From: Octopus vulgaris
Taxonomy: Eukaryota
DNA length: 64,000 nt
Direction of reading: 5' to 3'
NCBI GenBank assembly: GCA_951406725.2
Contig: OX597814.1
Span: 104,780,001-104,844,000, forward strand
The notes under the pieces were generated by a model that ran no database searches, was not told the origin of the DNA, and worked only from the letters and a program-made list of their open reading frames with translations. Of this stretch, positions 35,167 through 55,878 are shown piece after piece. A program made the translations under genes and the position numbers. How positions within the stretch are numbered: the stretch's first letter is position 1; each line of letters begins with the position of its first letter.

Positions 35167-36458
35167 CGAGGGGCGTTCAATAAGTAATGCCTCTGACCCA
35201 CTTCCCATAGCATTAGGGCAACGAAACTTGGCACATTTATTAGTCTTTTTCTACATAGGAACCACCCAGAGTTACGCATTTCTCCTATTGTTTGATGCAG
35301 CTCTGGAGACCGTTTTTGTAGAAGACCCCAGCTTGGTCCTCCAACCACGACATGACTTCAGAAATCAAGGCTGCATCATCTGGCAAACGCTTTCTTTTCA
35401 AAAACAACTTCATGGCTGGGAAGAGGTGAAAATCAGAGGGTGCAAGGTCAGGAGAATAGGGGGGATGGGGAGGAGTTCATAGCCGCACGCCTGTGCTTCT
35501 GATCTGACGACACGCAAGTTGTGGACCGGAGCGTTGTCCTGCAGGAGGAGGATGCTTTTGCTGATCTTGCTCCGCCTCTTGATTTTGATAGCTTCTCTTA
35601 ATTTCCTCAAAAGTGAAGCATAATAGGCTCCTGTAATTGTGGTACCCTTTGCCAGGAAATCTGTCATCACTACTCCGTCCTGGTCCCAGAAGACTGTGAG
35701 CATGACCTTGCCAGCGGAGAGCTGCACCCTTGCCTTCGTTGGAGGAGGTGAGTCACGGTGCTTCCACTGCATTGACTGAGTTTTGGTCTCTGGATCATAG
35801 TGATGGACCCAGGTTTCGTCCTGTGTAATCAGTCTTTTGAAAAATTTTGACTCATCTTCTTGGCACATCTCTAAATTCATCCTCGAGCACTCAACGCGTT
35901 CTTGCTTCTGGAAAGTTGTGAGTAACCTGGGAATCCATCTGGCTGACACCTTTTGCATATGCAAATGGTCATGAATGATAGTTTCCACAGACCCGGTACC
36001 AATCTTGACCTCATGGGCTATTTGGCAAATAATTATGCGTCGATCTTCCAAAATGGCAGCCTCAACTAGACGGGCCGATGCCTCATCAATGGCAGAAGGG
36101 GGGCGACCAGATCTGCGAGCTGTTTCCACAGAATTCTGACCATGTTTGAATTCACGATGCCAGCGTTTTACAAAGTCATATGATGGGGCATCATCACCAT
36201 AAGTTACTTTCATTTCATCAAAAGTCTCCCGTGGTGTGCGTCCTTTCAAATACAAAAACTGGATCACTGCTCGATACTCAACAGGCTCCATTTCACACTT
36301 GACTCAGTTCAAACACCTGTAAATCAGAAACTACAATTAGTTCAGAGCTGTAATTTGTCACTTAATCTATAGAAATATAAATAATTGCACATGCAAAATG
36401 TCAGCTAGATCAAACGACGGCAAGTGGGTCAGAGGCATTACTTATTGAACGCCCCTCG
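35167..36458 (-). mobile_element. Full-length mariner (DD34D, irritans-like), 1292 bp
   Basis: Perfect 37-bp TIRs CGAGGGGCGTTCAATAAGTAATGCCTCTGACCCACTT; TA TSD. Confidence 0.97.
35240..36291 (-). pseudogene. Mariner transposase with one frameshift and one premature stop near the C-terminus
   Basis: WIPRLL, TQDETW, QDNAPVH in frame; PPYSPDLAPSDFHLFP only after a frameshift at ~35465; Q*EKC (TAG where Trp is expected) before the native end YVEKD*. Confidence 0.93.
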
Positions 36459-36489: not shown

Positions 36490-36545
<56 letters not shown>

Positions 36546-36770
36546 GAAATATTAAAATTACTAAGTCTCTCTAAAAGAGAACAACGGCAGCGTTCCCGGA
36601 AAATATTAGTTATCGCCATACTAATGTGGCATTCTTATAAAAATAAGAATAAAGCTGTCCGCTTATTAGCTCCATGAGGCCATCGCCTTAAGTTAGCTAT
36701 TTGATACACAAACTGTATCCATATAACCTTTGAACAAGGAGGTCAGTCGCTCCACACTACTTGGCCGGCA

Positions 36771-36812
36771 GCTACAGACGCGTTTCGGGGTATTGCCCCT
36801 TTTCAATGCAGC
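36771..36812 (-). ncRNA. Minimal type-I hammerhead ribozyme (U3-A8 variant)
   Basis: Revcomp reads GCTGCA-TTGAAAA-GGGG-CAATA-CCCC-GAAA-CGCG-TC-TGTAGC. Confidence 0.78.
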
Positions 36813-37169
36813 GTAGCCAGACCAGTAGGTGTCGCTTCTGACAATCTCTGTTCAAAGGTTTTATTTACCTAGCTTCGGTGGAAACATCCACTTGTTTTCA
36901 ATAATAGAAATATTAAAATTACTAAGTCTCCTAAAAGAGAACAACGGCAGCGTTCCCGGAAAATATTAGTTATCGCCATACTAATATGGCATTCTTATAA
37001 AAATAAGAATAAAGCTGTCCGCTTATTAGCTCCATGAGGCCATCGCCTTAAGTTAGCTATTTGATACACAAACTGTATCCATATAACAAGTGGATGTATT
37101 CCACCGAAGCTAGGTAAATAAAACCTTCGAACAGAGATTGTCAGAAGCGACACCTACTGGTCTGGCTAC

Positions 37170-37211
37170 GCTGCATTGAAAAGGGGCAATACCCCGAAAC
37201 GCGTCTGTAGC
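37170..37211 (+). ncRNA. Minimal type-I hammerhead ribozyme (U3-A8 variant); predicted cleavage after 37205
   Basis: Stem I GCTGCA/TGTAGC, core TTGAAAA, stem II GGGG/CCCC, GAAA, palindromic ACGCGT stem III, GUC triplet. Confidence 0.8.
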
Positions 37212-37532
37212 TGCCGGCCAAGTAGTGTGGAGCGACTGACCTCCCTTGTTCAAAGGTTATATGGATACAGTTTGTGTATCAAATAGCTAACTTAAGGCGA
37301 TGACCTCATGGAGCTAATAAGCGGACAGCTTTATTCTTATTTTTATAAGAATGCCATATTAGTATGGCGATAACTAATATTTTCCGGGAACGCTGCCGTT
37401 GTTCTCTTTTAGAGAGACTTAGTAATTTTAATATTTCTATTATTGAAAACAAGTGGATGTATTCCACCGAAGCTAGGTAAATAAAACCTTTGAATAGAGA
37501 TTGTCAGAATCGACACCTACTGGTCTGGCTAC

Positions 37533-37574
37533 GCTGCATTGAAAAGGGGCAATACCCCGAAACGCGTCTGTAGC
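37533..37574 (+). ncRNA. Minimal type-I hammerhead ribozyme (U3-A8 variant); predicted cleavage after 37568
   Basis: Identical motif 363 nt downstream of the previous copy. Confidence 0.8.
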
Positions 37575-37736
37575 TGCCGGCCAAGTAGTGTGGAGCGACT
37601 GACCTCCCTTGTTCAAAGGTTATATGGATACTGTTTGTGTATCAAATAGCTAACTTAAGGCGATGGCCTCATGAAGCTAATAAACGGACAGCTTTATTCT
37701 TATTTTTATAAGAATGCCATATTAGTATGGCGATAA

Positions 37737-37794
<58 letters not shown>

Positions 37795-39771: not shown

Positions 39772-41265
39772 TTTTTCTTGTTTCAGCTCAGAGCTGCGGC
39801 CATGCTGATGCACCGCCGTTTTGTGCTACACTGTTGTTACGAAGATCCTCCTCTAATATGTGGCACTTGGTGAAGAATGGAGTTTGATATAGCTACTCTC
39901 ATTTGCACCTCTTGCCGTGAGGTAGGTTCATCTGGGACTCTTGACAGGAAGATGTCCAGCTTTGATTTAAAAACCGCTACATCTACTTTGTGCAAGTTCC
40001 TCAGACTCTTTGGGAGAATAACAAAAAGCTGTGGGCCCTTGAAACCCAGGCTGTTGCAGAAGCTTGTCCTGAAGCGTGATGGCATTGCTGGGATCTTTGG
40101 CACTATGCAGTGTCGTCTCGTTCTAGCATTGGTGTAGCTTACAATGCCAAAATTTGGCACAATTCCTTCCAGGATATTCCAGACATATATTACTGCATAC
40201 CTCTCCCGTCTTCTCTCCAGGGAGTAGAGTCTTAGCTGTTTCAACGCAGTAGCTGAGCAGTTGCAAAGAGACGATCTTCTTTGTGTATCTTCTCTGGATT
40301 GCTTCAACGTCCGCTGTTAATTTCACACTGGTGGGTGACCATAGCTGTGAGCAGTAATCCAGGCGGCTGAGGACGAATGTCCGCCAGAGGACCATCATGG
40401 CTTCCTTATCTCTGGTTCTGAATGTTCTTAGGATCCATCCATCCAGTCGTCTGCACTTTGTCGCCATCCTGGTAATGTGCACTTGGAAAGATGTATCCTC
40501 ACTCATGTCGTTACCCAGGTCCCTCACAGACTTAGGCTCTGGGATTGAAATTCCCTGTGGACCGGTGTATCCTGTAAGTTTAATATTCAGTTTAGGATGC
40601 TGGTAGCGCAGGGCCTGGAATTTTTCAGCATTAAACTGCATATTATTATCCTCAGCCCATCTGTAGATTGAGTCCAACTCCTGCTGCAGGTGTGCAACAT
40701 CGCTGGGGTTCTGTATTTTCTGCGAGACTTTCGTATCGTCTGCATAGCTTGCCAGAGTGGCTATCCGGGCATTTGAGGGCATATCTGAGAGGGCCACTAT
40801 AAAAAGCAGTGGTCCCAAGACAGTGCCCTGTGGAACACCACTCACTATTTGTGTGTTCATAGAGGTGGCTCCATTAACCACTACTGCCTGACTCCTATCT
40901 TTCAGGGAGTCATGTAACCACACTCCAAGTTTTCCAGCTATGCCGAGGTCACGCAGTTTGTGGCATATCATACCATGATCTACCTTGTCAAAAGCTTTTG
41001 CAAAATCAAGGTATATTACATCCACATTTGATTTGTTGAGTAACTGCCTCAACACCCAGTCATAATGTTGTAAGAGCTGGGTCAGGCAGCTCCTACCTGG
41101 TCGAAAACCATGCTGGGTATCACTCAGCAAGTTATTTTTTTCAAGGAATGCGATTAGTTTCTTTCTGACTATCCGTTCCATGACTTTGCTGATGTGTGAA
41201 GTCAGAGAGATAGGCCTATAGTTTTTGGCATCTGCTCTACTTCCCCCTTTATGTATTGGGCATAT
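39772..41265 (-). mobile_element. CR1-clade LINE, 5'-truncated, RT domain largely open, 3' UTR intact
   Basis: PIHKGG..NYRPISLTS, QHGFRPGRSCLTQLL, YLDFAKAFDKVDH, SGVPQGTVLGPLLF, YADDTK, RLDYCSQLWSP; frameshift at ~40250; 3' end GGCGGTGCATCAGCATGGCCGCAGCTCTGAGCTGAAACAAGAAAAAAA. Confidence 0.95.
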
Positions 41266-41473
41266 TATGTTGTTTAGTTTTATGTATATCTTCTCATGCA
41301 TATAGTTGCATATCTAGACACGCTCATATATATTTAAATGATAAACTTCTGGAAAGTTTTACAGATTTTTACAGTTCCAGTGATGGATTGGATCTGTTGT
41401 TCTCGAATTAGCTTTCTCCTTTCTGGTTTTGAGAAGCTTAATTTCTCAAGATTGGTATTTAGGCAGAGTTGTA

Positions 41474-46264: not shown

Positions 46265-46984
46265 ATTCTTTTCTGCTCTAGGCACAAGGCCCGACATTTT
46301 GGGGGATGGGGCCAGTTGTTTAGATAAACCCTAGTACACAACTGGTACTTAATTTATCGACCGCGAAAGGATGAAAGGCAAAGCCGGCCTCGGCGGAATT
46401 TGAACAAAGAACGTAAAGGCAGACAAAATACCTATTTCTTTACTACCCACAAGGGACTAAACACAGAGGAGACAAACAAGGACAGACAAACTGATTAAGT
46501 CGATTATATCGACCCCAGTGCGTAACTGGTACTTTATTTATCGACCCCGAAACGATGAAAGGCAAAGTCGACCTCGGCAAAATTTGAACTCGGGACGTAA
46601 CGACGGGCGAAATACCCATTTCTTTACTACCCACAAGGGGCTAAACACAGAGAGGACAAACAAGGACAGACAAACGGATAAAGTCGATTATATCGACCCC
46701 AGTGCGTAACTGGTACTTATTTGAACTCAGAACGTAGCGGCAGACGAAATACCTATTTCTTTATTACCCACAAGGGGCTAAACACAGAGGGGACAAACAA
46801 GGACAGACATAGGTATTAAGTCGATTACATTGACCCCAGTGCGTAACTGGTACTTAATTTATCGACCCCGAAAGGATGAAAGGCAAAGTCAACCTCGGCG
46901 GAATTTGAACTCACAGCGTAACGCAGACGAAATACCGCTAAGCATTTCGCCCGGCGTGCTAACGTTTCTGCCAGCACACCGCCT
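46265..46984 (-). mobile_element. SINE family A multimer: one head plus four body units
   Basis: Head at 46940-46984; unit junctions AAATACC.ATTTCTTTA at ~46430, ~46615 and ~46750. Confidence 0.9.
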
Positions 46985-55459: not shown

Positions 55460-55878
55460 TGTTACTTTATTGCCCACACAGAGGGCTAAACATAGAAGGG
55501 ACAAACAAGGACAGTCAAAGGGATTAAGTCGATTGTATCGGCACCAGTGCATAACTGGTTCATACTTACTCGACCTCGACAAGATGAAAGGCAAAATCGA
55601 CCTCGGTGGAATTTGAACTCAGAACGTAACGGCAGACGAAATACCTATTTCTTTATTACCCACAAGGAGCTAAACACAGAGAGGAGAAACAAGGACAGAC
55701 AAACGGATTAAGTTGATTACATCGACCCCAGTGTGCGACTGGTACTTAAATTATCGACCCCGAAAGGATGAAAGGCAAAGTCGACCTCGACGGAATTTGA
55801 ACTCAGAACGTAACGGCAGACGAAATGCCGCTAAGCATTTCGCCCGGCGTGCTAACGATTCTGCCAGCTTACTGCCTC
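55460..55878 (-). mobile_element. SINE family A, one head plus two body units
   Basis: Same architecture as the copy at 2015-2360. Confidence 0.9.

What the first reader, a model, noticed from the sequence alone, without database searches (positions are those of the whole stretch)
37170..37211. Hammerhead core has the compensatory U3-A8 pair and a dimer-type palindromic stem III
Seen: the core reads UUGAAAA rather than CUGANGA in all three copies. Positions 3 and 8 are both changed (C3>U, G8>A), while G5, A6, A9, G12-A13-A14-A15.1 and the GUC triplet are intact. Stem III is only ACGCGU, which is self-complementary. Known: positions 3 and 8 form a tertiary Watson-Crick pair and U3-A8 is a functional but uncommon natural variant; minimal hammerheads with short palindromic stem III cleave as dimers. 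Inference: the double change suggests selection for catalysis; the tandem layout supplies the partner ribozyme; searches requiring CUGANGA would miss this family.
Basis: partly seen in the sequence, partly recalled or inferred. Interest (0 to 1): 0.75.

Follow-up and report, generated by a model that had tools for sequence, protein, structure and literature searches.

The report
Hammerhead retrozyme with drifting core pair
This is one young copy of a protein-free jumping repeat carrying a predicted self-cutting RNA with a known rare base swap, and its sister families in the same genome have spread with all four versions of that base pair, so the swap likely reflects a loosely held pair rather than fine-tuned catalysis.

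Summary
Observation confirmed: three type I hammerheads (two tandem on +, one inverted on -) read U3-A8 with stem III ACGCGU. They lie in a 363-bp non-coding retrozyme inserted in (TA)n with a Penelope-type footprint. Natural U3-A8 and dimer-type palindromes are published (Perreault 2011; Cervera 2014).

The dimer reading gains support. The tandem transcript's predicted best fold is the double hammerhead, and subfamilies use all four possible 6-nt palindromes plus three 8-nt ones.

The claim that the double change shows selection for catalysis is weakened. Related subfamilies in this genome spread with U3-A8 (over 1,900 matches), U3.G8 (290), C3.A8 (29, at 21 loci) and C3-G8 (37). Cleavage and circular RNA are untested, and no autonomous helper was found.

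The scan has already noted the Penelope footprint and the four pair versions on other pieces of this genome and in other genomes. New member of a known kind; its value is as a natural mutant series.

The parts
36540..37743 (.). Whole insertion: two back-to-back arms of a 363-bp non-coding unit (about 40% GC), joined at a 3-nt overlap (37085-37087)
   Evidence: no stop-to-stop frame of 120 aa or more inside
36540..37087 (-). Left arm, unit positions 51-363 then 1-238 (numbered from the predicted cleavage site); ends at the 'tailed' site 238
   Evidence: L001
37085..37743 (+). Right arm, unit positions 243-363, 1-363, 1-175; ends at the 'short' site 175
   Evidence: L001
37170..37211 (+). Hammerhead copy 1: core U3-U4-G5-A6-A7-A8-A9 at 37176-37182, stem II 37183-37195, stem III ACGCGT 37199-37204, predicted cleavage after C 37205
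37150..37228 (+). Extended helix I around copy 1, with a UAC / U internal loop after the 6-bp stem; covaries across 13 subfamily representatives
37533..37574 (+). Hammerhead copy 2 (core 37539-37545; predicted cleavage after 37568); predicted dimer partner of copy 1
36771..36812 (-). Hammerhead copy 3 in the inverted arm (core starts at 36806)
37206..37568 (+). Unit-length monomer between the two predicted cuts (363 nt); predicted highly self-paired as a circle (z -5.6)
36540..36602 (-). 63-bp 'tail' (unit 176-238) that lengthens the left end and is missing from the right end
37716..37731 (+). GCCAYATT-N3-ATGGC hairpin 12 nt before the short end, kept in both lineages; candidate recognition site for the reverse transcriptase (inferred)
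36494..36542 (.). Left (TA)n flank
37740..37791 (.). Right (TA)n flank

Best explanation
The motif is a type I hammerhead inside a 363-bp non-coding repeat of the retrozyme kind, which is likely copied by a Penelope-type enzyme in trans and likely needs only modest self-cleavage. SHOWN from sequence and calls: the motif; the dispersed young family; (TA)n targeting; two fixed ends; covariation of helices I and II and of the stem III palindrome; spread of all four Y3/R8 states. PREDICTED: a read-through of two tandem units folds as a double hammerhead in which the two ACGCGU palindromes pair, so both sites could be cut to free a 363-nt monomer. INFERRED: the monomer is ligated to a circle; a Penelope-like reverse transcriptase/GIY-YIG protein cuts TA repeats and primes from both DNA ends, one at unit position 175 and one at 238, giving back-to-back arms longer than one unit. 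INFERRED: U3-A8 is the ancestral state of this radiation and is probably a slower core. The 3-8 position tolerates any pyrimidine/purine combination well enough for a subfamily to spread, and one lineage walked U-A to C.A to C-G in single steps.
For: Family: best 40 candidates scored gave 135 matches, most full-length ones 97-100% identical, on many contigs; 842 + 255 exact matches in the window's subfamily; 847 more with a 6-nt loop. Structure: 94% of 234 cells paired and 12 of 18 pairs with two-sided change over 13 representatives; slid controls 26-49% paired. Catalytic letters G5, A6, A9, G12-A14 and GUC are invariant in those 13. Palindrome: major subfamilies use ACGCGT, ACATGT, ACTAGT, ACCGGT (94 of the 100 listed, counted by eye) and ACTGCAGT, ACTATAGT, ACCGCGGT. 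Dimer fold is the best fold of 37148-37591; the monomer stem III has probability 0 in 11 of 11 tandems. Footprint: of 56 inverted insertions, 40 pair a short with a tailed end, 2 short/short, 0 tailed/tailed, 14 have another end; this matches the one-sided tail and the two start sites described for Penelope-like elements. Core states. Trees built without positions 3 and 8: C.A + C-G clade 100/99, C-G 98/90; C-G grouped with U-A but without C.A is rejected, p 0.0065; all U-A rows on one side of a branch is rejected, p 0.0005.
Against: No cleavage, circular RNA or strand of expression was shown; only assembled contigs of runs guessed to be RNA hold the unit. The double-hammerhead fold was not predicted in 4 of 11 tandems, including all three C3-G8 ones. 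No autonomous partner was found: the large Neptune-like family tested has a different ribozyme and no similarity to the unit beyond short C-rich matches. In a type III scaffold every core mutant except G3-C8 had low activity. Eight of nine Xenopus retrozyme dimers did not cleave in vitro. Trees rest on about 218 columns and mosaic copies occur. C.A as its own clade is not rejected (p 0.077), and a single origin of G8 is not rejected by the AU test (p 0.21) although its likelihood is 173 units lower. The four states differ only by transitions, the commonest mutations.
Confidence: 0.65

Rival explanations
1. The hammerhead fold is kept mainly as a structure (a protein-binding or packaging module). 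Catalysis is dispensable for spreading, so the 3-8 pair drifts.
For: Mismatch states spread: C3.A8 at 21 loci on 13 contigs including a tandem trimer, U3.G8 290 matches. Catalytic mutants of the anole Penelope hammerhead still supported insertion in vitro, and no RNA ends were seen at its cleavage site (PMC11167929). Insertion ends are at 175 and 238, not at the cleavage site.
Against: G5, A6, A9, G12, A13, A14, A15.1-U16.1 and C17 are invariant across lineages about 50% identical elsewhere. No subfamily with a purine at 3 or a pyrimidine at 8 was seen to spread, only single copies; the window's subfamily was searched fully, the other lineage only in its first 100 of 237 listed matches. The palindrome is kept through double changes.
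Confidence: 0.17
2. One reading: U3-A8 is a strictly compensatory change selected to keep efficient catalysis.
For: 1,097 of 1,104 matches in the window's subfamily are U3-A8. U3-A8 is reported active in vitro (cited in PMC3088659). Watson-Crick states outnumber mismatch states, and one lineage ends in C3-G8.
Against: Near-fixation in a young family follows from descent from one source element. Both single-change states founded their own subfamilies. U3-A8 was not a rescuing swap in the one deep scan read.
Confidence: 0.12
3. The copies are truncated ends (pLTRs) of an autonomous Penelope-like element rather than an independent non-autonomous repeat.
For: [quoted passage not shown] Most such insertions are 5'-truncated.
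Against: Arms run head-to-tail through several 363-bp units with no coding sequence between them.
Confidence: 0.05
4. An ordinary satellite expanded at the DNA level by unequal crossover.
For: Head-to-tail units.
Against: Short dispersed arrays on many contigs, two fixed ends, inverted arms and (TA)n flanks.
Confidence: 0.01

Closest known systems
Metazoan non-LTR retrozymes (Cervera and de la Pena 2020, PMC7229834: passages and section 14 read; Li et al. 2026, bioRxiv 10.64898/2026.07.22.740005: parts 1-3 of 5 read)
   Same: Tandem 350-390-bp, low-GC, non-coding units, each with a type I hammerhead with a weak palindromic helix III; highly self-paired monomer; proposed Penelope dependence.
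   Different: U3-A8 core, with U.G, C.A and C-G sister states; short dispersed arrays with inverted arms and two fixed ends; circular RNA not shown here.
U3-A8 hammerheads of Schistosoma Cercyon Penelope-like elements (Cervera and de la Pena 2014, PMC4209133, parts 1-2 of 4 read) and other natural U3-A8 cores (Perreault 2011, PMC3088659, passages)
   Same: Same 3-8 covariation; about 1,300 copies reported in one animal genome.
   Different: The Schistosoma motifs were found among minimal hammerheads (7-8-bp helix II, extra unpaired base, mostly single). This one has canonical helix sizes and sits in tandem units. The passages read do not describe amplified mismatch states.
Penelope-like elements (Frangieh 2024, PMC11167929, parts 1-2 of 4; Craig 2021, 10.1101/2021.04.23.441226, passages)
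   Same: AT-rich or (TA)n targets, cutting and priming on both strands, two internal start sites downstream of the hammerhead, tail on one end, inverted 5'-truncated arm.
   Different: No ORF; tail 63 bp (about 47 bp in the sister lineage) instead of 30-40 bp; helper not identified.

Membership tests
Type I hammerhead ribozyme | Three helices round the core, open helix I | tested here: met
Type I hammerhead ribozyme | U4 G5 A6 A9, G12 A13 A14, A15.1-U16.1, H17, purine-pyrimidine pair 10.1-11.1 | tested here: met
   invariant or paired in 13 of 13 representatives; G10.1-C11.1 in the window
Type I hammerhead ribozyme | Watson-Crick pair between 3 and 8 | tested here: met
   U-A in the window; U.G and C.A in sister subfamilies
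Type I hammerhead ribozyme | Self-cleavage at H17 | not testable with these tools
   only contigs were available
Rfam hammerhead models | Score at the gathering threshold | tested here: not met
   no hit at gathering or at E 10; the C3-G8 siblings in L075 and L123 were also missed at E 5, so the miss is not due to U3-A8 alone
Canonical metazoan (dimer-type) hammerhead | Helix I 6 bp, helix II 4 bp, 1-2-bp helix III with a palindromic loop | tested here: met
   against the definition in PMC4209133
Canonical metazoan (dimer-type) hammerhead | Conserved loop 1-loop 2 tertiary contact | tested here: inconclusive
   URC/U internal loop and CA(N)1-2UA loop recur; likeness to the Schistosoma contact is recalled, not tested
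Penelope minimal hammerhead (min-HHR) | 7-8-bp helix II, unpaired base between 9 and 10.1, 4-5-bp helix I | tested here: not met
Non-LTR retrozyme | Tandem 170-400-nt non-coding units, under 45% GC, each with a type I hammerhead | tested here: met
   363 bp, about 40% GC, no long frame
Non-LTR retrozyme | Highly self-paired monomer | tested here: met
   circular fold z -5.6, -9.1, -5.2 for three subfamilies, 60 shuffles each; prediction only
Non-LTR retrozyme | Accumulates as circular RNA | tested here: inconclusive
   contigs in four runs guessed to be RNA cover the unit; a circle junction cannot be told from a tandem junction
Autonomous Penelope-like element | Reverse transcriptase plus GIY-YIG ORF between pLTRs | tested here: not met
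Penelope-mobilised element | One-sided tail, inverted truncated arm, (TA)n target | tested here: met
Penelope-mobilised element | End sequence shared with an autonomous partner | tested here: inconclusive
   four Penelope-like families checked, none matched; the search was not exhaustive

The most novel reading that the evidence does not exclude
This genome preserves a complete natural record of a catalytic tertiary base pair changing by single steps (U-A to U.G and back, U-A to C.A to C-G), with each mismatch intermediate spreading as its own subfamily. That would show that animal retrozymes are mobilised with slow or protein-assisted cleavage, while the dimer palindrome is held more strictly than the core pair.
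Probability: 0.45. Interest if true: 0.6.

Novelty: new member of a known kind. Interest (0 to 1): 0.4.

Why it matters
How much self-cleavage a retrozyme or Penelope element needs in order to move is open: published hammerheads of this kind are often slow or inactive in vitro, and catalytic mutants still insert. Measuring them would relate cleavage rate to success in spreading. The U3-A8 variant by itself is already known.

Tried and rejected
Rfam gave no hammerhead hit in the window, nor for the C3-G8 siblings.

Helper search. A young Neptune-like family (11,513 first-look candidates, 150 scored) carries a different minimal hammerhead and no matching ends. Three other Penelope-like fragments beside family copies are separate insertions. 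Widely spaced same-strand hammerheads were separate insertions, nested LINEs or local duplications, not autonomous elements.

A-to-I editing as the source of changes was not supported: among rare variants in 133 aligned pieces A>G and T>C were 12 each. No extra conservation of the core among young copies was seen (10 of 1,060 core letters differ, 4 of them the N7 subfamily mark), as expected for inserted copies.

L089 has a canonical core but is not homologous outside the ribozyme.

Sequencing runs: no RNA holder on record was listed. Laid contigs showed no other letter at positions 3 or 8, but the tables also missed the common N7 variant, so I take this as uninformative.

Literature searches for U3-A8, octopus or cephalopod hammerheads and retrozymes, C3U/G8A and retrozyme twin priming listed no paper on this family or on amplified mismatch states. 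Przybilski and Hammann 2007, Lunse 2017 and Martick and Scott 2006 were not held, and no supplements were read; any of these may already list such variants.

Full report
Observation. The coordinates hold a type I hammerhead motif: stem I GCTGCA/TGTAGC, core TTGAAAA, stem II GGGG-CAATA-CCCC, GAA, stem III ACGCGT and C17. Cores start at +37176, +37539 and -36806. A relaxed pattern finds these 3 against 0.02 expected in shuffles. Only two copies are tandem on one strand. The helix sizes are those of the canonical metazoan hammerhead, not the Penelope minimal form (definitions in PMC4209133). Rfam does not detect it, but it also misses the C3-G8 siblings.

The element. The motif lies in a 363-bp unit. 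The insertion (36540-37743) has two back-to-back arms between (TA)n tracts. Numbered from the predicted cleavage site, the left arm ends at unit position 238 and the right arm at 175. The genome is 2.8 Gb and microsatellite-rich; an octopus is my guess, also named in earlier scan notes. The family is young and dispersed, with 842 + 255 exact core matches (lower bounds). In the loci examined, which were best hits and first-listed matches rather than a random sample, there were 56 inverted insertions: 40 pair a short end with a tailed end, 2 are short/short, none tailed/tailed, and 14 have some other end. Of 38 single-armed insertions 21 are tailed, 10 short and 7 other. Independent choice of ends would give at most half mixed; 40 of 42 is about p 2e-10 (worked by hand). 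A one-sided tail, an inverted truncated arm and (TA)n targets are described for Penelope-like elements. The purified anole enzyme cuts both strands and starts at two internal sites that define the tail. I infer mobilisation by such an enzyme. The helper was not found.

The dimer claim. The best predicted fold of the tandem stretch 37148-37591 is the double hammerhead, with the two ACGCGU paired to each other (pair probability 0.83-1.0). Of 11 tandems tested, 7 gave 0.39 or more and 4 gave about 0, including all three C3-G8 ones; the monomer stem III had probability 0 in all 11. Stronger evidence comes from variation. A wider pattern found 847 more hammerheads, and 94 of the 100 listed have one of the four possible palindromes ACATGT, ACTAGT, ACGCGT or ACCGGT (counted by eye). 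Other subfamilies use ACTGCAGT, ACCGCGGT and ACTATAGT. Each switch among the 6-nt forms needs two changes, and a monomer loop would not need to be self-complementary. Copies within a subfamily are not independent; at subfamily level all four palindromes and none of the twelve other dinucleotides were seen as major forms. Helices I and II covary: 94% of 234 cells are paired over 13 chosen representatives, against 26-49% in slid controls.

The U3-A8 claim. Natural U3-A8 is published (PMC3088659 passage; about 1,300 hits in Schistosoma). In the window's subfamily 1,097 of 1,104 matches are U3-A8; 6 differ at position 3 and 1 at position 8. A homologous lineage exists in the same genome, about 50% identical and significantly alike outside the ribozyme (z 4.5-5.8, 0 of 300 shuffles), with the same two-ended footprint. 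It holds U3-A8 (most of 237 non-G8 matches), C3-G8 (37 matches at 17 loci), C3.A8 (29 matches at 21 loci on 13 contigs, with a tandem trimer) and U3.G8 (290 matches). Trees were built with positions 3 and 8 removed, rooted on the window's lineage, with near-identical rows thinned (64 of 118 rows, 43). They place U.G inside U-A, a second U-A group inside U.G, and C.A with C-G inside that (C.A + C-G 100/99; C-G 98/90). Holding all U-A rows on one side is rejected (p 0.0005), and so is C-G with U-A but without C.A (p 0.0065). C.A as its own clade (p 0.077) and a single origin of G8 (p 0.21, despite a likelihood 173 lower) are not rejected. The simplest reading is change by single steps, each state able to spread. 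The constraint that remains is pyrimidine at 3 and purine at 8; other letters were seen only as single copies, although transitions are also the commonest mutations.

Mechanism. Shown: motif, family, ends, covariation, four core states. Predicted: double-hammerhead fold and a self-paired monomer (z -5.6). Inferred: cleavage at both sites frees a 363-nt monomer, which is circularised as in mussel retrozymes (PMC7229834 section 14) and copied by a Penelope-type enzyme from both DNA ends. Inferred: cleavage can be slow. In a deep scan of a type III hammerhead only the G3-C8 swap rescued the pair. The anole hammerhead needs protein to cleave and its catalytic mutants still insert. Eight of nine frog retrozyme dimers did not cleave. 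Expression is not established: contigs of four runs guessed to be RNA cover the unit but cannot show ends, strand or circles.

Novelty. The class, the variant, the dimer principle and the Penelope link are in print. My searches listed no paper on this family or on amplified 3-8 mismatches, but three key papers were not held and no supplements were read. Earlier scan notes already report the Penelope footprint many times and 'four versions' of the pair in this genome. I had found U-A, C.A and C-G before reading them; I searched for U.G afterwards and confirmed it. Verdict: new member of a known kind, interest 0.4, useful as a natural mutant series.

Noticed in passing
window 35410-36303 (-): Mariner-type transposase frame (label from recalled motifs) ending just before the TA tract that holds the retrozyme.
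   Followed up: no
window 48596 (+): A canonical CTGAAGA core with weak helices passed my descriptor; probably chance.
   Followed up: no
L244 (G000:C28 near 20675600-20675900): One insertion has C3.A8 on one arm and C3-G8 on the other, with different loop II, which suggests two RNA templates in one event.
   Followed up: partly
L269, L270: A LINE with endonuclease and reverse-transcriptase frames (Tx1-like by recall) begins about 40 nt after the cleavage site of U3.G8 copies.
   Followed up: no
L155-L157: Young Neptune-like element in 6.2-kb tandems with a long RT plus GIY-YIG frame and a minimal hammerhead with a CCGACGA core.
   Followed up: partly
L023 / L205 2098-2448: A different small inverted element with its own U3-A8 hammerhead-like motif and ACCGGT stem III.
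   Followed up: no
L123, L163: A diverged third lineage with a C3-G8 core and ACTAGT stem III.
   Followed up: partly
L268: A 1.38-kb tandem duplication carrying a retrozyme piece and a LINE fragment.
   Followed up: no
window 46340-46856 and 55465-55826: Related 137-184-bp tandem repeats, possibly a SINE family.
   Followed up: no
window 40123-41313 (-): LINE-type reverse-transcriptase frame of 396 aa.
   Followed up: no
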